Virus record (IMG/VR): IMGVR_UViG_3300046536_000804
Source: an uncultured virus (IMG/VR IMGVR_UViG_3300046536_000804)
Taxonomy: Duplodnaviria; Heunggongvirae; Uroviricota; Caudoviricetes
Direction: 5' to 3' (one strand)
Length of the DNA stretch: 64,000 bases
Shown here: positions 9,555-64,000 of the stretch, one piece after another
How positions within the stretch are numbered: position 1 is the stretch's first letter
How the letters are laid out: the number at the start of each line of letters is the position of its first letter
Translations under genes and position numbers: made by a program
Notes under the pieces: generated by a model
Seen by the model: only the letters and a program-made list of their open reading frames with translations
Told to the model about the DNA's origin: nothing
Database searches by the model: none

Positions 9555-11603
9555 GTGACGCGAAAGCCAACAACACGCCGCCTTCTTGGGCGACGATTTA
9601 CCGAAGAAGGCGTGGCAGACCTACTGCCATTGGGTAGAATGCTTCCGGTATCACTCTTTTCCGGAGGTTTTGTGCTCGTCAAGAAAATCCATCCGAAGTT
9701 GTTGCTCGCTCGACGCACGCTCGAATCGCTCAGCAACGTCGAAGTCTGCAGGTCGGTAACCGATCTGCAGCGTCTCGAAGCGATCCAAGCTCTTGTCGAG
9801 CACGGCAATTTGCAGACTTTCGTACCGCTCTTGCCTGCCTGCTTCAACCTGAACGGCTACCCATTTACTCTGGACGACCACTTTGCTCTCGAACCGGTCT
9901 TCAAGAGATCGATGCCGGAAGTCTTGACGATCAAGGGGGCTCGCCAGTTCGGCAAGTCGACGTTTCAAGCGGCGCGATCGCTGCTCGTCTCGCTAACGAT
10001 GCCTTACTTCTCCACCCTCTTCGTCTTTCCTCTCTTCGAACAAGTTAACCGGTTTTCAACACAGTATGTTGGCAAATTCCTTGAGGAATCGCCGATCAAA
10101 AGCGCCTGGATGGGACCGCGATCCAGCAATAGCGTTCTCACCAAGGCGTTCAGCAATTTCTCCAAGATGACCTTCAGCTTCGCCGGCCTCTCGGCCGAGC
10201 GTATCCGGTCGGTCAGTGCGAACAGCATCATCTTCGACGAGGCCCAGAATCTGGACCGTCGGCAGATGCCGGTCATCTCGGAGGTTATGTCGCATTCGCT
10301 GGTTTACGATCGACGCACCCAGCGTCGAGTCCACGCGAAGTTCACCGTCATCACGGGCACCCCGAAGACGCTCGACAACTTCCTCGAGGTGAAGTGGGCT
10401 GAGTCGAGTATGGCAGAGTGGGTGATCCCATGCGTATGCGGCAAGGAGAATTACCCGGCCAGGGGTATGGACCTGGAGAAGATGATCGGCCCTATGTATC
10501 TGGAGTCCGACAAACGCGAGATCGGCGAGGTGCGAGACAACAAGCGACCCGGCACCATCTGCGCCAAGTGCGGCCGCAGCATCGACCCTCGTATCGGCTT
10601 CTGGCATCACCGCCACCCCGATCGTATCGCTACGAAGCCAGGTCTGCACGTCCCGCAATGCATCATCCCGGTTCACTATGCCCAGCCCAAAGGCTGGGCC
10701 ACCCTGCTGGGCAAGCAGGCCGGCAGCGGCAACTACACGACCGCCAAGCTGTACAACGAGGTTCACGGCGAGTCGTTTGATCTAGGAGCTAAATTGCTTA
10801 CCGAAACCGATCTGAAAGCGGCAGCCGTATTGCCGTGGCATAACAACCCGATGAGTTTTGCGGACCTGGCTCGCAGCATCCGCAGCAAATACGTGTGTCT
10901 GTTCATGGGAGTCGACTGGGGCGGCGGCGGCGAGAGCGAGGTCAGCTTCACCACGGCAGCCGTTCTTGGCATGCTCCCAGACGGTCGCATCGACATCGTC
11001 TACGGTCGCCGACTGTTGCTGTCGCACGATAACCGAGGCGAGAACGAGATCTTGCTCAACATCTACGACACGTTCGGCTGCAGCTACTTCTGTCACGACT
11101 ACAACGGTGCCGGCGCCCTGATCGAGCAGTACCTGGTGCAGAGCGGTCTGCCGATCAACCAGGTGGTGCCGTTCGTTTACTACCGCTCCGCGGCGAAGGA
11201 TATCGTGGTATTCCACCAGGCGGCCGAAGAACATCACCGCAGTTATTATCACCTGGACAAGGCTCGTGCATTGGAACTGGTCTGCGAAATGATCAAGTTG
11301 AAGCAGATTCGGTCTTTCAAGTACGACCACATCTCCGAGGATGAACGAGGTCTGTTGATCGACTTCACCAGCTTGGCTCAAGCAAAAATCGAAACCGCCC
11401 GGGCAGGCGAGGTGCACACAGTGCAACGCGTTGGCTCCTTCCCGGACGATTTCGCACATTCGGTTACGTTTGCTGCTTGCGGTATCTGGCACGCCAACGG
11501 GATATGGCCGGACTTGCCTATGCTGGCGAAGCTTATGATAACGAAGGAGCAGGAGGAAGCCTTGAATCCGTCTAGCAGTCCGTGGGATGTCCAATCGACA
11601 TAG
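9555..11603 (+). CDS. terminase large subunit (GpA-like)
   Basis: KGARQFGKST Walker A, IIFDEAQ Walker B, GTPKT, Zn-finger insert, nuclease motifs MGVDWGGG and PDDFAHS; true start may be the ATG at 9639. Confidence 0.85.
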   Translation: MTRKPTTRRLLGRRFTEEGVADLLPLGRMLPVSLFSGGFVLVKKIHPKLLLARRTLESLSNVEVCRSVTDLQRLEAIQALVEHGNLQTFVPLLPACFNLNGYPFTLDDHFALEPVFKRSMPEVLTIKGARQFGKSTFQAARSLLVSLTMPYFSTLFVFPLFEQVNRFSTQYVGKFLEESPIKSAWMGPRSSNSVLTKAFSNFSKMTFSFAGLSAERIRSVSANSIIFDEAQNLDRRQMPVISEVMSHSLVYDRRTQRRVHAKFTVITGTPKTLDNFLEVKWAESSMAEWVIPCVCGKENYPARGMDLEKMIGPMYLESDKREIGEVRDNKRPGTICAKCGRSIDPRIGFWHHRHPDRIATKPGLHVPQCIIPVHYAQPKGWATLLGKQAGSGNYTTAKLYNEVHGESFDLGAKLLTETDLKAAAVLPWHNNPMSFADLARSIRSKYVCLFMGVDWGGGGESEVSFTTAAVLGMLPDGRIDIVYGRRLLLSHDNRGENEILLNIYDTFGCSYFCHDYNGAGALIEQYLVQSGLPINQVVPFVYYRSAAKDIVVFHQAAEEHHRSYYHLDKARALELVCEMIKLKQIRSFKYDHISEDERGLLIDFTSLAQAKIETARAGEVHTVQRVGSFPDDFAHSVTFAACGIWHANGIWPDLPMLAKLMITKEQEEALNPSSSPWDVQST

Positions 11604-36090: not shown

Positions 36091-37710
36091 CTAGCTCTCG
36101 CTGATGGTCAAGGCGATATCGGTCGGTACGACGAAGAAGGTCACCGTTCGAGCGGTCGTCATATCTGCAGGCAGGTCAGGCACCGTCAGGTCACCACTGC
36201 CCGATAGTGCGACGGTGGTGCCGTCTGGCTTGCGGATACGCCCGGTGAAGTTGTAACCAGAGATCGCGCTGAGGCTTGGCACCAGGTTGTGCAACTGCTG
36301 ACTGACATACGACTTAGCGAGGATGCCTGGAAAGTTGAGACGGTTGATCGAGTCAGCCAAACTTGTAGCCACAGCAGTGCTATCCACCACCGTACCAGCC
36401 GGAACGACCAGCGTTGCGGTGATCGTGGTAAAGCACGGCACCGGCGCCTTGACCAGCACGTCCCCTGACGTCGGTGAGTTAGCCACCGAGCCCCAGAAGG
36501 TTTGCAGGGTGTCAATGAGCGGCAATCGACGTACGGTGACCGAATACGATGCGGTTGCACCGACAGTCATAGCTGCTGCGTTGGTGACTGTGTCGGCGAA
36601 CTGAATAACCACAGCCTGGTAACTGCTGTAGACCGCCTCCACTGCGTCAACGATATCGGGCAGCAGTCCATCGCCTGCCACGTCCGCAGATCGAGAATCC
36701 GAAGCCACGGCAAAGACCGTTGCATTGGTCGGCAGCGAGATCGACACCACCTCGTACAGACCGGCAGCCTGCTCGCGATCGAGGCCGAACTGCCAGGTGC
36801 CGATCGTGCCGGCCACGCTGACCAGTGAGGCCGTCTTCGTGATCTGCTCCTCGACGTAGAGCGGAGCGGTCTTGGCGTACATATCGGCACGCCCGCCGCC
36901 GGATACCGGCCACAGCGAGTGTTGATCGCGAAGCATCTCAGCATCGCCATAGCCGATGATCGACATGTTGACCAACGCAAAAAAGGCGGCCTGCTCTCGA
37001 GTGGCAGCCTCAACGGTTCGACGATTTGACCAGGCTCTGGCTGCTGGACCTGAAGTCAATCGCGACACCAGGCTGGCATTCGATTCACCGTCGGCGCCGC
37101 CAGTGAAGTCGGTGGCAGCATAAGAACGTACAAAGGCAAACATGGTGGCGGACGGAACTGCTGAGGCTCCGCGGCGAATATTACCAGCGGCGCCAGCAAT
37201 CTTGGCAACCACATCGATGTCGAAGGCGAAATTGCCACCAGACACTGCTGTAATGAGCTTGTCGGTACTTGTCACAACCGCACCGGCTGACGTGCGGCCG
37301 GTCTGGATGCTTGTCGTCGTAAAGACCTGCGTACCGATAGTAAAGGTACTGCCGTTCGGGATGATCGTGGTGATGAGACGATTGAGCAGGATCGTGACCC
37401 GGCCTTCCGCTTTGGCGGCCGGTTGCCGCGTCATCCGGAAGTTGCCGAGCACGCGATCTACCTCGGCGCTATCGGCGATCGCCGGGTCGGCGACGATCTC
37501 CGTCAAGCTGGTCGAACTCAGCGCCGTATCGACTGCCTGCTCGGTGCTTGCAGTCAGCAAGGCTCTCGGAAAGAGAGCCAGGTCGGCGACGACGCCGCGG
37601 CGAAGATCAATATCGGGGTTGTACTCGACGATCGTCTCGGTCAGCAACGCCTTGAGTGCGGCGAACCGAACCGGATCGAGATCGGCCAGAGCTGGGTAGG
37701 TTAGCGGCAT
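36091..37710 (-). CDS. baseplate J-like protein
   Basis: PDIDLRRG, RQPAAKAEG.V, IPNGSTF, GAAGNI, FTGGADGES. Confidence 0.82.
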   Translation of the reverse strand: MPLTYPALADLDPVRFAALKALLTETIVEYNPDIDLRRGVVADLALFPRALLTASTEQAVDTALSSTSLTEIVADPAIADSAEVDRVLGNFRMTRQPAAKAEGRVTILLNRLITTIIPNGSTFTIGTQVFTTTSIQTGRTSAGAVVTSTDKLITAVSGGNFAFDIDVVAKIAGAAGNIRRGASAVPSATMFAFVRSYAATDFTGGADGESNASLVSRLTSGPAARAWSNRRTVEAATREQAAFFALVNMSIIGYGDAEMLRDQHSLWPVSGGGRADMYAKTAPLYVEEQITKTASLVSVAGTIGTWQFGLDREQAAGLYEVVSISLPTNATVFAVASDSRSADVAGDGLLPDIVDAVEAVYSSYQAVVIQFADTVTNAAAMTVGATASYSVTVRRLPLIDTLQTFWGSVANSPTSGDVLVKAPVPCFTTITATLVVPAGTVVDSTAVATSLADSINRLNFPGILAKSYVSQQLHNLVPSLSAISGYNFTGRIRKPDGTTVALSGSGDLTVPDLPADMTTARTVTFFVVPTDIALTISES

Positions 37711-61757: not shown

Positions 61758-62288
61758 TTAAGCGTTGCCGACAAACGGCCGGACTGACTCCCAGGTTAGC
61801 GGACCCGTGTTGCGATAGACGTGCAGATCCTTCACGCCAGCCTGCAGTTGTGGCAGGTCGGCCATCCACTCGTCATACAGCATAGCTGCAAGATCCTCGA
61901 ACGTCCTGACGTGGGCGTAGCTGGTCGGCTCGCCGGTGCGAATCGCCTTACGTACCCTTCGAGCCGTACGCCTGGAGACCACTAGCTCTTTCGGCGGCAG
62001 AACAACCAGTACCCGGTGCTCGAAGAGCGACCGTGGCGTAGCCGCAAGCTGACCACCCTCGACGATACCGATGCCCTTGCTCAGGATCAGAGTCTCGCAA
62101 GCGACTTTGACTCGCAACGCCGCGTAGCCGTCCGGCTGACCTTGTCTCAGCAGCTCTTCTGCCGGACGAAGTTTCGGCAACCATTCGGGATGCTTATCGC
62201 ACCGCAATAATGGAAGAGCCATGTTACTGGCGACCAACTCAGCGACCGCCGTCTTCCCTGCCCCTGACGGACCAGTGATGCACAACAT
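61758..62288 (-). CDS. P-loop nucleotide kinase-like protein
   Basis: ITGPSGAGKT, LRCD, IVEG, RRTAR. Confidence 0.7.
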   Translation of the reverse strand: MLCITGPSGAGKTAVAELVASNMALPLLRCDKHPEWLPKLRPAEELLRQGQPDGYAALRVKVACETLILSKGIGIVEGGQLAATPRSLFEHRVLVVLPPKELVVSRRTARRVRKAIRTGEPTSYAHVRTFEDLAAMLYDEWMADLPQLQAGVKDLHVYRNTGPLTWESVRPFVGNA

Positions 62289-62311
62289 ATCCTTACCCCA
62301 GCAAGTGTACG

Positions 62312-62349
62312 AAAAAAGCCCTAAGTTGCACTTGCACAACTTAGAGCTT
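62312..62349 (-). terminator. intrinsic terminator closing the tRNA array
   Basis: AAGCTCTAAGTTG-N8-CAACTTAGGGCTT followed by TTTT. Confidence 0.7.
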
Positions 62350-62476: not shown

Positions 62477-62549
62477 CGCCCTCGCTCGGATTCGAACCGA
62501 GGTCTCAACCGTTTAGAGCGGTAGTGCGATGCCGCTTCGCCACGAGGGC
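62477..62549 (-). tRNA. tRNA with CUA anticodon (amber suppressor type)
   Basis: acceptor GCCCTCG/CGAGGGC, D arm GCGA/TCGC, ACCG-CT CTA AA-CGGT, T arm CTCGG-TTCGAAT-CCGAG; no encoded CCA. Confidence 0.85.
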
Positions 62550-63140
62550 TTTATTCCTTCCGCAGAATGTTTCTGTCTGCGAGTTGCAGTTTGGGCACAG
62601 CAACCTCAGGTTGCTTACGAGACCATTGCGACGATTTCCGTCTATGTGATCCAAGATAAGTACAAGCGGTTTGCCGAACCAAGACGGTGAATTACCGCAT
62701 TCGTAGCAGTTGTTGTTCAGGATGCCTTCGGCGATCAGTCTTCGTTTTCTACCGCCACCGATGGGGTGGTCACTGTCTGCAACTAACACCTCCGCCCACG
62801 GCGTACGTTGTCTGATTCCTGACGTGCCGTGACTTAACCCTTTCCAGTGGCTGGTATCAAGACCGTGTCTCGCCACTTCGCGTTTCACCCAGCTATAGGC
62901 AGAGCCTACAATAGCTCGATTCATCTTGCGAAGGACTGCTGATATGCTCAAGCTCTCTGCAACAGCCTGTTTGAACGCGTCAACGTCGTATCCTTGCCGT
63001 CGGTTACTTACTAGATGGTCAAGGCGGTGTTTCTTGATCCACCAGCGAACAGTTGATCGCGAACAATCAAAATAATCGGCGATCTCCTGTAGCGATTCGT
63101 CGTGGATCGTCAAACGCTGCTCGAGAATATTTTTGTCCAT
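62505..63140 (-). CDS. HNH homing endonuclease with N-terminal HTH
   Basis: LQEIADYFDCSRSTVRWW; CYECG...LDHIDGN..N..SNLRLLCPNC; 3' end overlaps tRNA-CUA. Confidence 0.88.
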   Translation of the reverse strand: MDKNILEQRLTIHDESLQEIADYFDCSRSTVRWWIKKHRLDHLVSNRRQGYDVDAFKQAVAESLSISAVLRKMNRAIVGSAYSWVKREVARHGLDTSHWKGLSHGTSGIRQRTPWAEVLVADSDHPIGGGRKRRLIAEGILNNNCYECGNSPSWFGKPLVLILDHIDGNRRNGLVSNLRLLCPNCNSQTETFCGRNKALVAKRHRTTALNG

Positions 63141-63147
63141 ACATACT

Positions 63148-63176
63148 ATCGTAGCACAACAGGAGTGGCGGAGCAA
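63148..63176 (-). promoter_or_regulatory. sigma70-like promoter for a probably leaderless HNH mRNA
   Basis: TTGCTC-N17-TACGAT with extended TG; ATG follows after a 7-nt spacer. Confidence 0.55.
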
Positions 63177-63207
63177 TTCGCTGCTCTGCCAATTGAGCTA
63201 CGGCCGC
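63174..63207 (-). pseudogene. tRNA 5' half truncated in the anticodon loop
   Basis: GCGGCCG TA GCTC AATTGGCA GAGC A GCGAA TT G, then the HNH cassette; no matching 3' half seen. Confidence 0.7.
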
Positions 63208-63213
63208 TTACAT

Positions 63214-63287
63214 TGACCTCGCCTGGAGTCGAACCAGGATTACGACCGTTTAACGGGTCGGGAATTAGCCAATTATTCGACGAGGTC
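63214..63287 (-). tRNA. tRNA with 8-nt anticodon loop, probable UUA (ochre) anticodon
   Basis: GACCTCG/CGAGGTC, GAAT/ATTC, CGACC-CGTTAAAC-GGTCG, CCTGG-TTCGACT-CCAGG. Confidence 0.7.
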
Positions 63288-63292
63288 TAAAG

Positions 63293-63464
63293 AGCCGGTG
63301 GCAAGATTCGAACTTGCGTCCAACGGTTTATTAAACCGCTGCTCGAGCAGTGTCAGCTCTGGCGTTCTTCACCGGTTGTACTTCCCGGCTATCACCGCTT
63401 TCGCTTGGCTGCCAGATCATCGCAACGTTAACGCCCGCGACGATCCCCACTGAGCTACACCGGC
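63293..63464 (-). ncRNA. tRNA-like RNA with 107-nt D-loop and AAU anticodon
   Basis: perfect GCCGGTG/CACCGGC, GCTC/GAGC, GCGGT-TTAATAA-ACCGT, GCAAG-TTCGAAT-CTTGC. Confidence 0.75.
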
Positions 63465-63468
63465 ATAG

Positions 63469-63587
63469 CGGCGGTGGCTGGATTCGAACCAACACCTCCC
63501 AGCAAGCTGGGTGCTCACCACCCCGGAAGGGGAGTGCCGATCTTTGCCGGCGAACCGGTTTCGAAGGACACATTGAGCTACACCGCC
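63469..63587 (-). ncRNA. tRNA-like RNA with 58-nt D-loop and CUUG tetraloop instead of an anticodon loop
   Basis: perfect GGCGGTG/CACCGCC, GCTC/GAGC, CCCAG-CTTG-CTGGG, GTTGG-TTCGAAT-CCAGC. Confidence 0.75.
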
Positions 63588-63594
63588 GTTGTCC

Positions 63595-63617
63595 TCTTTC
63601 ACCCGAGGCCAAGGGTT
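63595..63617 (-). repeat. 23-nt motif copy just 5' of the tRNA array
   Basis: AACCCTTGGCCTCGGGTGAAAGA. Confidence 0.8.
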
Positions 63618-63624
63618 ATCTGTC

Positions 63625-63981
63625 TCACGCTGCTGCCAGGGACAAGCCCCGCAGCAACTTCTGCTTACGGAACACCCGCCGCTGCTCGCCCGACACCAAC
63701 TCGGTGGCAAACGCCGTCATCTCGTTGTCGAGATCCTCTTCCCAGAACTCGCTGCAGCGGATGCCGGCAGCTCTCGCAGTCTTCAGCATCTCGACGAGTT
63801 CTTTCTCGTCGGCGACGGTGCAGATGACCAGGTTGGGACTCTCGACGTCTTCAGGGGTGAGATGGTTGCGTGCCGATTTGATGGCAGCATGGCAAGCCTG
63901 GACGGCCTGCTGTGGGACAGAAAGGTCTTCGCGGACGACGCAATAAATGTACTGCGTTGGACTGGAGATCTAGTGAGTCAT
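63625..63981 (-). CDS. Pth2-like peptidyl-tRNA hydrolase with in-frame TAG at codon 4 (absent from the ORF track)
   Basis: AAGGAG-N6-ATG ACT CAC TAG, then 114 open codons: YIYCVVREDLSVPQQAVQACHAA...LVICTVADEKEL...FWEEDLDNEMTAFAT...KLL. Confidence 0.8.
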
Positions 63982-64000
63982 GACTCGCTCCTTGGGGTTG

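What the first reader, a model, noticed from the sequence alone, without database searches (positions are those of the whole stretch)
63625..63993. Amber-gated peptidyl-tRNA hydrolase gene heading an array of stop-codon-reading tRNAs
Seen: the minus strand reads AAGGAG, 6 nt, ATG-ACT-CAC-TAG (TAG at 63970-63972), then 114 uninterrupted codons. These carry the Pth2-fold pattern (Y.VVR.DL...QAVQA.HAA, LV..V.DE.EL, F.E.DL..E.TA.A). No ATG/GTG/TTG lies between the TAG and the conserved N-terminal motif, so an intact protein needs amber readthrough. A CUA tRNA and a probable UUA tRNA lie 0.3-1.1 kb downstream on the same strand, with no terminator evident in between. Known: Pth2 enzymes recycle peptidyl-tRNA; bacterial TAG is read by RF1. 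Inference: this is a self-contained termination-sensing circuit in which Pth2 is made only when amber termination is leaky (suppressor tRNA present, or RF1 depleted or attacked). It may counter translation-targeting host defence or remodel termination late in infection. The frame is also open to the window edge, so the TAG may instead end a longer upstream ORF; readthrough would still be required.
Basis: partly seen in the sequence, partly recalled or inferred. Interest (0 to 1): 0.92.

Follow-up and report, generated by a model that had tools for sequence, protein, structure and literature searches.

The report
Amber-gated hydrolase beside suppressor tRNA
A phage gene for a peptidyl-tRNA-hydrolase-like enzyme can only be read past a stop codon at its fourth codon, most likely by the phage's own stop-reading tRNA, and the same arrangement recurs in many phages and some bacteria.

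Summary
On the minus strand AAGGAG, 6 nt, ATG-ACT-CAC-TAG (TAG 63970-63972) runs in frame into 114 codons. These match Pfam PTH2 above its cut-off and fold like archaeal and human Pth2. A tRNA-CUA lies 1.08 kb downstream on the same strand.

The TAG is neither an error nor a pseudogene mark. Of 77 distinct homologues examined:
- 38 have a 2-12-codon ATG leader ending in an in-frame stop just before the domain (35 TAG, 3 TGA, 0 TAA).
- 16 more keep one internal TAG at a fixed site.
- 22 have no in-frame stop, and 1 is cut by a contig end.

The leader-stop cases include cultured standard-code phages (GAP32, CBB, BF, fHe-Yen9-04, ME3, RsoM2USA, Arash). A suppressor tRNA was found for 25 of the 38, and its anticodon always matches the stop (CUA with TAG; UCA with TGA).

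The window's other genes, including terminase and baseplate, are intact in the standard code, so this is a single gated gene and not a recoded genome.

The 'UUA tRNA' is not confirmed: it has an 8-nt anticodon loop. Two neighbouring tRNA-like elements cannot decode.

What the enzyme does for the suppressor is inferred, not shown. My literature searches found no report of this link.

The parts
63988..63993 (-). Shine-Dalgarno AAGGAG, 6 nt before the leader ATG
   Evidence: Read directly. An SD-like motif 2-9 nt (32 of 33 at 4-9 nt) before the leader ATG is found in 33 of 38 leader-stop homologues.
63970..63981 (-). Mini-leader ATG ACT CAC TAG (M-T-H-amber); the gate is the TAG at 63970-63972, followed by A (+4 purine)
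   Evidence: The identical 12 nt occur in L001, L040/L045 and the 595-kb phage LR756511. Serratia phage BF has ATGACGCACTAG.
63625..63969 (-). Body of the PTH2-like gene: 114 codons plus TGA, with no canonical start before codon 60
   Evidence: Pfam PTH2 28.9 bits. AF2 model pLDDT 87.2. Foldseek hits to Pth2 structures.
63469..63587 (-). tRNA-like element: cloverleaf with a 54-nt two-hairpin insert in the D arm and only a 4-nt loop where the anticodon loop should be; not a decoder
   Evidence: Rfam tRNA 48 bits with the insert. Fold. A 209-nt contig of an unrelated run matches 63432-63640 with 3 differences.
63294..63464 (-). Second tRNA-like element with an insert of about 100 nt after the D-stem 5' strand; 'anticodon' loop UUAAUAA
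   Evidence: Partial Rfam tRNA hit at 63301-63348, 29.1 bits. Fold. Read by eye.
63214..63287 (-). tRNA with an 8-nt anticodon loop CGUUAAAC (ARAGORN anticodon 'ttaa'); what it decodes is unresolved
   Evidence: Not reported by the Rfam tRNA model at E<=1.
63170..63207 (-). 5' fragment of a tRNA gene (acceptor strand plus D arm) abutting the HNH gene
   Evidence: Read by eye. A weak YrlA hit overlaps it (E 0.64, below cut-off).
62505..63176 (-). HNH homing-endonuclease ORF between the tRNA fragment and tRNA-CUA
   Evidence: PHROG 10822 at 1.1e-38. Weak Pfam HTH and HNH matches.
62477..62549 (-). tRNA-CUA, the amber suppressor; its start is 1,076 nt downstream of the PTH2-like stop codon, on the same strand
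   Evidence: ARAGORN anticodon cta. Rfam tRNA 52.7 bits, full length.
62312..62344 (-). Hairpin plus T-run after the tRNA-CUA (possible end of the transcription unit)
   Evidence: Seen by eye. Not flagged by the scan, so this is weak.

Best explanation
This is a suppressor-gated gene. Ribosomes load at the Shine-Dalgarno-served ATG, make Met-Thr-His and meet UAG at codon 4. Without a suppressor, RF1 ends translation after a tripeptide. When the phage's own tRNA-CUA (1.08 kb downstream, same strand) is made and charged, it reads the UAG and the ribosome goes on to make a 117-residue PTH2-fold hydrolase. The stop sits in the unstructured N-terminal leader, so any inserted residue is tolerated and the abortive product costs almost nothing.

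The enzyme and the suppressor tRNA form a portable module found in many phages and some bacterial chromosomes. The in-frame stop ties enzyme output to suppressor activity.

Shown here: the anatomy, the fold, conservation of the gate, and the match between stop type and neighbouring anticodon. Inferred: that the tRNA is expressed and charged, that read-through really occurs, and that the enzyme hydrolyses N-blocked (peptidyl) or other acyl-tRNA species that arise because of, or belong to, the suppressor.
For: (1) Anatomy in the window.

(2) PTH2 family and fold.

(3) Conservation. Of 77 distinct homologues, 38 have an ATG leader of 2-12 codons ending in an in-frame stop within 14-23 codons of the conserved QQAVQACH motif, just upstream of the first strand. 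Thirty-four of the 38 have no ATG/GTG/TTG between the stop and the first strand.

(4) Stop type. The leader stops are 35 TAG, 3 TGA and 0 TAA. The ordinary upstream in-frame stops of 19 of the 22 ungated homologues (those tabulated) are 5 TAG, 11 TGA and 3 TAA (Fisher p = 7e-7, rows not independent).

(5) Cognate tRNA. A suppressor tRNA was found in the same record for 25 of the 38. It is CUA in all 23 TAG cases and UCA in both TGA cases, L004 and L035/L036. With the anticodon masked, the L036 UCA tRNA is 82% identical to the L152 CUA tRNA.

(6) The link is to suppressors, not to tRNA arrays in general. In 70 loci there are 48 suppressor tRNAs and 31 others. By contrast, 3 of the 83 tRNAs in the tRNA regions of three jumbo phages are suppressors.

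(7) A second gate position. Seventeen sequences, down to 35% pairwise identity, all keep TAG at one internal loop site while the flanking residues vary.

(8) Tree. The leader-stop state lies on both halves of the family tree and needs at least 4 changes on well-supported branches.

(9) The window is not recoded. Predicted genes end in TGA 41, TAA 28 and TAG 14. Terminase, baseplate and helicase genes are intact. The only two other TAG junctions with coding signal on both sides are ordinary gene ends.

(10) In GAP32 a whole-genome scan for the leader-stop pattern finds this gene as the only convincing case.

(11) Cultured standard-code phages show the same gate, and the gene is missing or truncated in their GenBank records.
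Against: - No direct evidence exists for the read-through protein, for expression or charging of the tRNA-CUA, or for enzyme activity.
- 22 of 77 homologues have no in-frame stop, yet about half of them still sit beside a tRNA-CUA. The gate is therefore a refinement and not a requirement.
- 4 of 38 leader-stop genes have a canonical start codon after the stop (L003, L004, L042, L046).
- In four long loci (L032, L040, L046, L160) no suppressor tRNA lies within about 4 kb.
- Catalytic residues match canonical Pth2 only in part. The His is kept, Glu stands where Pth2 has Asp, and the Gly-Lys loop is absent.
- The loci were found mostly through one conserved peptide (QQAVQAC), so the sample is a biased part of a family with 1,971 representative clusters at E<=1e-10.
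- The rows are related, so counts overstate independent events.
- The DNA upstream of the window edge was not seen.
Confidence: 0.8

Rival explanations
1. The three-codon ORF is an ordinary upstream ORF. The PTH2-like body is made by termination-reinitiation or by initiation at a non-canonical codon just after the stop (ATC here; ATT or GTT elsewhere), without any suppression.
For: The codon after the stop is ATT in 8 and ATC in 1 of 38, and these are weak start codons. It is ATG in 1 and GTG in 1. Four of 38 have a canonical start after the stop.
Against: - The stop is TAG or TGA in step with the neighbouring anticodon, and never TAA. Reinitiation would not care which stop is used.
- In 27 of 38 the next codon is one not known as a start (GTT, GTA, GTC, AAT, AAC, GGN, GCG).
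- The SD is spaced for the leader ATG, 18 nt from the ATC.
- The internal-TAG class cannot be rescued by reinitiation, because the stop lies inside the fold.
Confidence: 0.08
2. The in-frame TAG is a neutral by-product of genome-wide reassignment of TAG to an amino acid (code 15-like phage), and not a gate.
For: Phages with suppressor tRNAs and recoded late genes are known (Borges et al. preprint 10.1101/2021.08.26.457843, passages read). A few homologous loci gain coding density when TAG is read as sense (L078 0.78 to 0.91; L013, L074). L008 carries a release-factor gene.
Against: - Coding density in the 64-kb window is 0.91 in the standard code and 0.93 with TAG as sense, no more than the controls.
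- 14 of 83 predicted genes end in TAG, and the late genes are intact.
- The same gate occurs in cultured phages annotated and grown in standard-code hosts, and in bacterial chromosomes among cellular genes.
- A freely synonymous codon would not stay TAG in 17 of 17 sequences at 35-49% identity.
Confidence: 0.04
3. The TAG is a sequencing or assembly error, or the gene is a decaying pseudogene.
For: Only the probable source run holds the site, so reads give no independent check. One homologue (L008/L060) does look broken further in.
Against: The identical ATGACTCACTAG leader occurs in independent assemblies at 42-59% protein identity (L001, L040/L045, LR756511) and in isolated phages. The 114 codons after the TAG are uninterrupted, have an in-frame codon-usage score of 0.18 (the in-frame mean of long genes is 0.18 and off-frame is -0.34), and fold confidently.
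Confidence: 0.02
4. The gate reports RF1 activity and not the suppressor. The protein would be made when RF1 is depleted or inactivated (by host defence or by the phage), and the tRNA-CUA is incidental.
For: Any early UAG is read in competition with RF1, so lower RF1 would open the gate.
Against: RF1 does not read UGA, yet the TGA-gated relatives carry tRNA-UCA. The tight physical link is to the cognate tRNA. Without a suppressor, loss of RF1 stalls ribosomes and gives no product.
Confidence: 0.05

Closest known systems
Stop-codon recoding in phages through phage-encoded suppressor tRNAs (Ivanova 2014, recalled; Borges et al. preprint 10.1101/2021.08.26.457843, passages read; theta-ribozyme paper PMC10879173, passages read)
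   Same: A phage-encoded tRNA-CUA or tRNA-UCA reads an in-frame stop, and the stop has been proposed to time gene expression.
   Different: In those phages a quarter to most genes carry in-frame stops, mostly late and lysis genes. Here the phage is otherwise standard-code, and one gene family carries a single stop at a fixed permissive place next to the tRNA. Neither paper mentions a peptidyl-tRNA hydrolase ('peptidyl', 'hydrolase' and 'pth' gave no relevant hit).
prfB (RF2) autoregulation by an early in-frame UGA (established knowledge, recalled)
   Same: A translation-related gene carries an early in-frame stop, and the way that stop is decoded sets how much product is made.
   Different: prfB is rescued by a +1 frameshift and senses its own product. 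Here the body is in the same frame, the rescuer is a tRNA, and feedback of the product on decoding is only a hypothesis.
Canonical Pth2 (PF01981; archaeal Pth2, human PTRH2/Bit1)
   Same: Same fold. The motif around the conserved His and the C-terminal TA motif are shared.
   Different: The phage clade has an invariant QQAVQACHA (VVQSNHAA in the enterobacterial jumbo phages). It lacks the Gly-Lys loop and has Glu where Pth2 has Asp. Its substrate is unknown.
Orphan suppressor tRNAs of standard-code jumbo phages (XacN1 PMC5852040; RsoM2USA PMC8504454; Atu_ph07 PMC6102473; passages read)
   Same: The same kind of phage and the same tRNA-CUA or tRNA-UCA.
   Different: Those papers name no target. 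[quoted passage not shown] Here RsoM2USA turns out to have an unannotated ML-TAG-gated PTH2-like gene. In XacN1 the domain is fused to another domain and is ungated.
Lambda bar minigenes and Pth (established knowledge, recalled)
   Same: A two- or three-codon ORF with a strong SD that ends in a stop. Such ORFs release short peptidyl-tRNAs, which are Pth substrates.
   Different: bar minigenes stand alone and are toxic only in Pth-deficient hosts. Here the mini-ORF is in frame with a hydrolase gene and the stop type tracks a suppressor tRNA.

Membership tests
PTH2 (Pfam PF01981) peptidyl-tRNA hydrolase family | Sequence match above the curated cut-off | tested here: met
   28.9 bits against a cut-off of 23, residues 19-88 on profile positions 4-81 of 115. 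The family profile hits PDB Pth2 chains, E 2e-6 to 0.045.
PTH2 (Pfam PF01981) peptidyl-tRNA hydrolase family | Pth2 alpha/beta fold | tested here: met
   AF2 pLDDT 87.2. Foldseek top 13 hits: 12 are Pth2-family structures (2zv3, 1wn2, 3erj, 1q7s, 1rlk, 1xty, 1rzw) and one is the related 2gax, with E 4e-7 to 9e-4.
PTH2 (Pfam PF01981) peptidyl-tRNA hydrolase family | Catalytic residues of canonical Pth2 (which residues are catalytic is recalled, not taken from a call) | tested here: inconclusive
   The alignment shows the His kept, Glu in place of the Asp of the DAG motif, Thr-Ala kept, and the two-residue Gly-Lys insertion absent.
PTH2 (Pfam PF01981) peptidyl-tRNA hydrolase family | Hydrolysis of peptidyl-tRNA | not testable with these tools
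   Needs an enzyme assay or complementation of a pth(ts) laboratory strain.
Programmed read-through by a cognate suppressor tRNA | The in-frame stop is conserved among homologues | tested here: met
   38 leader stops and 16 internal-only stops among 77 distinct homologues.
Programmed read-through by a cognate suppressor tRNA | A cognate suppressor tRNA is encoded by the same element, and the stop type co-varies with the anticodon | tested here: met
   Window tRNA-CUA. 25 of 38 leader-stop records have a suppressor: 23 TAG with CUA and 2 TGA with UCA, with no mismatch.
Programmed read-through by a cognate suppressor tRNA | No alternative canonical start that gives the whole domain | tested here: met
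   In the window the first start is 60 codons after the TAG. 34 of 38 leader-stop genes have none.
Programmed read-through by a cognate suppressor tRNA | The read-through protein is observed | not testable with these tools
   No RNA run holds the stretch. No proteome data were available.
Genome-wide TAG reassignment (code 15-like phage) | Many genes with in-frame TAG; low coding density in the standard code | tested here: not met
   Density 0.91 in the standard code. 14 of 83 genes end in TAG. Late genes are intact. No other gated junction in 64 kb.
prfB-like autoregulation | The product acts on decoding of the stop that gates it | not tested
   Only the early in-frame stop in a translation-related gene is shared. 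Feedback is a hypothesis.
Ochre suppressor tRNA (anticodon UUA) for 63214-63287 | 7-nt anticodon loop with U33 and UUA at positions 34-36 | tested here: not met
   8-nt loop CGUUAAAC. ARAGORN reads the 4-base anticodon 'ttaa'. No Rfam tRNA hit at E<=1.

The most novel reading that the evidence does not exclude
The PTH2-like enzyme acts on the suppressor tRNA itself, hydrolysing its acyl or peptidyl ester. The in-frame stop then closes a negative feedback loop: more read-through makes more hydrolase, which lowers read-through. The tRNA and the gated enzyme would be a portable 'suppressor plus governor' cassette that holds read-through at a safe set point. That would let standard-code phages and bacteria carry a suppressor, and it would be the first recoded gene on the road to a changed genetic code.
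Probability: 0.2. Interest if true: 0.92.

Novelty: new variant of a known kind. Interest (0 to 1): 0.82.

Why it matters
1. It gives orphan suppressor tRNAs of standard-code jumbo phages a conserved, testable target. The XacN1 authors looked for one and found none (PMC5852040).

2. It is a natural one-codon translational switch, like the amber-codon logic gates built in synthetic biology. It is placed where the failed product is only a di- to dodecapeptide.

3. The strict pairing of a PTH2-fold enzyme with suppressor tRNAs suggests that living with a suppressor needs, or is controlled by, an acyl-tRNA hydrolase. That bears on how genetic codes start to change.

4. Standard annotation misses or truncates the gene in isolated phages (GAP32, CBB, BF, fHe-Yen9-04, RsoM2USA, ME3, Arash) and mislabels some of the tRNAs. 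The module is therefore invisible in current databases.

5. Several of these phages and their hosts are culturable, so the hypothesis can be tested directly.

Tried and rejected
- Whole genome of the window: none is held.
- DNA similarity to known phages: only a 61-nt HNH match.
- A second viral-contig scan with the alignment returned the same 13 loci.
- Reads: only the probable source run holds the TAG site, and no RNA holder is listed.
- Other amber-gated genes in the window: a first scoring scheme was too strict. The second flagged TAG 29477 and TAG 6268, and both are ordinary gene ends followed by a hairpin or by SD plus ATG.
- GAP32 whole-genome leader-stop scan: the second TAG candidate (311457, GAP32_440) has a normal annotated start and no Pfam match, so I dropped it.
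- Amino-acid identity of the suppressor: comparison with the phages' own tRNAs was indecisive, with best matches of 0.69-0.75 to Lys or Met tRNAs.
- Partner ORF between gene and tRNA in relatives: no Pfam match and no Atlas hit, and it is absent from the window.
- Catalytic residues of Pth2 from the literature: PMC4929431 gave none and PMC2253226 is not held.
- Earlier findings of this scan: nothing.
- Literature: eight searches found no paper that links a PTH2-like gene, or an in-frame stop in one, to phage suppressor tRNAs. Subscription journals and supplements were not searched.
- Pyrrolysine: ARAGORN's 'tRNA-Pyl' label reflects only the CUA anticodon. I made no search for pyl genes, and among the neighbouring ORFs scanned with Pfam none matched a pyrrolysine family.
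Full report
WHAT IS THERE

On the minus strand at the right-hand edge of the window the sequence reads AAGGAG (63988-63993), six bases, then ATG ACT CAC TAG (63981-63970). It continues in the same frame for 114 sense codons to a TGA at 63625-63627. The first ATG, GTG or TTG in that frame after the TAG is 60 codons in. The frame is open to the window edge.

Read through the TAG, the product matches Pfam PTH2 at 28.9 bits against a cut-off of 23. It also matches three PHROG families of mostly unknown function.

An AlphaFold2 model built on 12 homologues has a mean pLDDT of 87.2. Its first beta strand starts at residue 17, so the leader and the TAG lie in an unstructured N-terminal tail. Foldseek against the PDB returns Pth2 structures as all of its significant top hits: 2zv3, 1wn2, 3erj, 1q7s, 1rlk and 1xty, with TM about 0.64-0.76.

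A profile alignment to canonical Pth2 keeps the His and the C-terminal Thr-Ala. It has Glu where Pth2 has Asp, and it lacks the Gly-Lys loop. Whether the enzyme has classical Pth activity is therefore open.

THE SETTING

The window is a phage. It has a large terminase (9555-11603, plus strand), a baseplate wedge protein (36091-37710), a tail fibre, a Dda-like helicase, a methyltransferase and an HNH endonuclease.

It uses the standard code:
- A simple gene model gives 83 genes ending in TGA 41, TAA 28 and TAG 14.
- Coding density is 0.91 in the standard code and 0.93 with TAG read as sense, no more than the TGA and TAA controls.
- The only two other TAGs with coding signal on both sides (29477 and 6268) are normal gene ends, followed by a hairpin or by SD plus ATG.

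Downstream of the PTH2-like gene, on the same strand, lie in this order:
- a tRNA-like cloverleaf with a 54-nt insert in its D arm and a 4-nt loop in place of the anticodon loop (63469-63587);
- a second tRNA-like element with an insert of about 100 nt (63294-63464);
- a tRNA with an 8-nt anticodon loop, CGUUAAAC (63214-63287);
- a 5' fragment of a tRNA;
- an HNH homing-endonuclease gene (62505-63176);
- a clean tRNA-CUA (62477-62549).

Only the last is a clear stop-codon reader.

THE COMPARATIVE RESULT

Relatives were collected from viral contigs (13 loci), metagenome contigs (62 loci), prokaryote genomes (4 loci) and GenBank phages (41 records by tblastn, of which 15 were fetched). After removing duplicates, 77 distinct loci were examined, the window included.

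They fall into these classes:
- 38 have a short ATG leader of 2-12 codons that ends in an in-frame stop just before the domain.
- 16 have a normal start but one internal TAG at a fixed place. Two of the 38 leader-stop loci (L002, L161) also carry an internal TAG at or near that place; L002 is counted in the 17 sequences.
- 22 have no in-frame stop. In three of these the domain is fused behind another domain (XacN1, Xoo-sp13, Hallingskeid).
- 1 is cut by a contig end.

The 38 leader stops are 35 TAG, 3 TGA and 0 TAA. The ordinary upstream in-frame stops of 19 of the 22 ungated genes (those tabulated) are 5 TAG, 11 TGA and 3 TAA (Fisher p = 7e-7, with the caveat that rows are related).

Further features of the leader stops:
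- An SD-like motif lies 2-9 nt (32 of 33 at 4-9 nt) before the leader ATG in 33 of 38.
- The base after the stop is a purine in 38 of 38. This is weaker evidence, because it is also a purine in 15 of the 19 ungated controls tabulated (p = 0.01).
- The very same 12 bases, ATGACTCACTAG, head the gene in the window, in L001 (59% identity), in L040/L045 and in a 595-kb uncultured phage. Serratia phage BF has ATGACGCACTAG.
- A second leader type ends in Gly-Phe-Thr, Val, Leu or Ala before the stop.

THE LINK TO SUPPRESSOR tRNAs

In 70 loci scanned together, 43 hold a suppressor tRNA in the DNA held. There are 48 suppressor tRNAs against 31 of all other kinds, and most of the latter are in four loci that lie inside large tRNA arrays. 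For comparison, the tRNA regions of three jumbo phages hold 3 suppressors among 83 tRNAs.

Among the 38 leader-stop genes a suppressor was found in the same record for 25. It is CUA in all 23 TAG cases and UCA in both TGA cases, L004 and L035/L036. The 13 without one break down as follows:
- seven are on short contigs or at contig ends;
- four are long loci with none within about 4 kb (L032, L040, L046, L160);
- one is CBB, where only about 3.5 kb on each side was held;
- one is RsoM2USA, whose paper reports one CUA tRNA elsewhere in the genome.

With the anticodon masked, the UCA tRNA of L036 is 82% identical to the CUA tRNA of L152. The TGA-gated genes form one supported clade, 97/94. Gate and anticodon therefore appear to have changed together.

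On the family tree (64 rows; five short rows and the eight later-fetched records were left out) the leader-stop state lies on both halves and needs at least four changes on well-supported branches. The internal-TAG class is compatible with one origin. In that class 17 sequences, down to 35% pairwise identity (median 49%), all keep TAG while the neighbouring residues vary. A codon freely exchangeable with a sense codon would not behave so.

CULTURED PHAGES

The gate is present in isolated phages of standard-code hosts:
- Cronobacter phage GAP32 and Pectobacterium phage CBB (MAQ-TAG);
- Serratia phage BF (MTH-TAG);
- Yersinia phage fHe-Yen9-04 (MSH-TAG);
- Ralstonia phage RsoM2USA (ML-TAG);
- Acinetobacter phage ME3 (MT-TAG);
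- Salmonella phage Arash (ML-TAG).

In their GenBank records the gene is absent or truncated. GAP32, BF and fHe-Yen9-04 each have one tRNA-CUA, 2.8-3.3 kb downstream on the same strand. ME3 has one 0.4 kb upstream, and Arash has one 1 kb downstream that is annotated as tRNA-Phe. A scan of the whole GAP32 genome for the leader-stop pattern finds this gene as the only convincing case.

The papers on XacN1, RsoM2USA and Atu_ph07 (passages read) note suppressor tRNAs but name no target. The XacN1 authors state that they could not identify one.

Four copies lie in Planctomycetota genomes, one of them a complete chromosome, and three of the four sit among cellular genes (ribonucleotide reductase, a protein kinase, RidA). 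All four have a TAG leader and a tRNA-CUA within 0.5-0.9 kb.

HOW IT MOST LIKELY WORKS

Shown: the anatomy, the fold, the conservation of the gate and its match to the neighbouring anticodon.

Inferred: ribosomes start at the leader ATG and reach UAG after three codons. RF1 ends translation unless charged tRNA-CUA is present. With it, the full enzyme is made. Putting the stop in a disordered leader, or in a surface loop in the internal class, makes the inserted residue unimportant and the failed product cheap.

The pairing is with suppressors specifically and not with tRNA arrays. The enzyme's job therefore most likely concerns the suppressor or the consequences of suppression. One possibility is clearing the peptidyl-tRNAs and stalled complexes that read-through creates. 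Another is acting on the suppressor's own ester, which would make the gate a feedback governor like the early UGA of prfB (recalled). The data do not decide between these two.

That 22 homologues are ungated, about half of them beside a tRNA-CUA, says that the enzyme-tRNA partnership is primary and the gate is a regulatory refinement.

RIVALS

- Reinitiation or non-AUG starts do not explain the stop-anticodon match, the absence of TAA or the internal gate.
- Genome-wide recoding is contradicted for this window and for the cultured phages.
- Error or pseudogene is contradicted by the conservation.
- An RF1-only sensor does not fit the TGA/UCA relatives.

LIMITS

There is no expression, charging, protein or activity data. 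The reads come only from the probable source. The loci were found mainly through one conserved peptide, whereas the family has 1,971 representative clusters at E<=1e-10. About a third of the top 150 called proteins start inside the first strand (my count from the listing), which hints that many more gated genes are hidden by gene callers. The counts are of related sequences. Eight literature searches of the open library found no description of this module, but subscription journals and supplements were not covered.

VERDICT

It is a new, conserved variant of suppressor-tRNA-dependent recoding: a single gated PTH2-like gene coupled to its cognate suppressor in otherwise standard-code phages and some bacteria.

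Noticed in passing
window 63469-63587 (-): tRNA-like cloverleaf with a 54-nt insert of two tetraloop hairpins in the D arm and only a 4-nt loop where the anticodon loop should be. A 209-nt contig from an unrelated run matches 63432-63640 with 3 differences, so the element is conserved elsewhere. Its function is unknown; a decoy or a Y-RNA-like RNA are guesses.
   Followed up: partly
window 63294-63464 (-): Second tRNA-like element, with an insert of about 100 nt after the D-stem 5' strand and a loop UUAAUAA. It matches the Rfam tRNA model only in part (29.1 bits).
   Followed up: partly
window 63170-63207 and 62505-63176 (-): A 5' half of a tRNA gene abuts an HNH homing-endonuclease ORF, whose 3' end overlaps the tRNA-CUA. 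It looks as if an endonuclease insertion has disrupted a tRNA gene.
   Followed up: no
L154:4396-4800, L152:4415-4810, L155:4414-4788, L027, L028, L030, L031, L033, L037, L038, L040/L045, L046, L035/L036, L004, L153: A conserved ORF of about 135 aa (motifs FQSRWG[FY]HPC, WYWQT, DFHRWHRW) with no Pfam or Atlas match sits between the gated PTH2-like gene and the tRNA-CUA in at least 15 leader-stop loci. It is absent from the window. In L040 it is fused to a cytidine/deoxycytidylate deaminase domain.
   Followed up: partly
L005:5583-6512, L006:5775-6716, L041:5601-6137; L005:6635-8341: An ADP-ribosylglycohydrolase gene lies next to the tRNA-CUA in three ungated loci. L005 also has a Ro60/TROVE protein nearby.
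   Followed up: no
L129:18872-18994 (GAP32); similar hits of about 120 nt in fHe-Yen9-04 and BF: tRNA genes of about 120 nt. In the one inspected, 65 nt stand where the model's 15-position anticodon arm should be, about 50 nt extra (an intron-like insert). ARAGORN does not report them.
   Followed up: partly
L158:4804-4878 (Arash); L159:3975-4046 (Myrna); L133:2528-2601 (ME3): GenBank labels these as tRNA-Phe, tRNA-Ser and tRNA-OTHER, but ARAGORN reads the anticodon CUA in all three. Myrna gp84 (PTH2-like, normal GTG start) lies 130 nt upstream of its tRNA-CUA.
   Followed up: partly
L152-L155 (Planctomycetota MAGs and one complete chromosome): The gated gene, partner ORF and tRNA-CUA lie among cellular genes in three of the four loci, so the module is not confined to phages. 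The L064-L080 group (internal TAG) also has bacterial-looking neighbours (sulfite reductase, YndJ).
   Followed up: partly
L008:6752-7387 (-): A release-factor-like protein (PCRF plus RF-1 domains) lies 1.7 kb from the gated gene in a 436-kb phage. The PTH2-like gene itself looks broken there after about 40 residues.
   Followed up: no
GAP32 record 311451-311864 (L130:3452-3865): A second ORF preceded by ATG-CTA-TAG in frame (GAP32_440). The annotated start 26 codons later is plausible and there is no family match, so it is probably not gated.
   Followed up: yes
window 61758-62339 (-): A P-loop (GPSGAGKT) protein with only weak AAA-type Pfam matches lies directly after the tRNA-CUA and a hairpin with a T-run.
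   Followed up: partly
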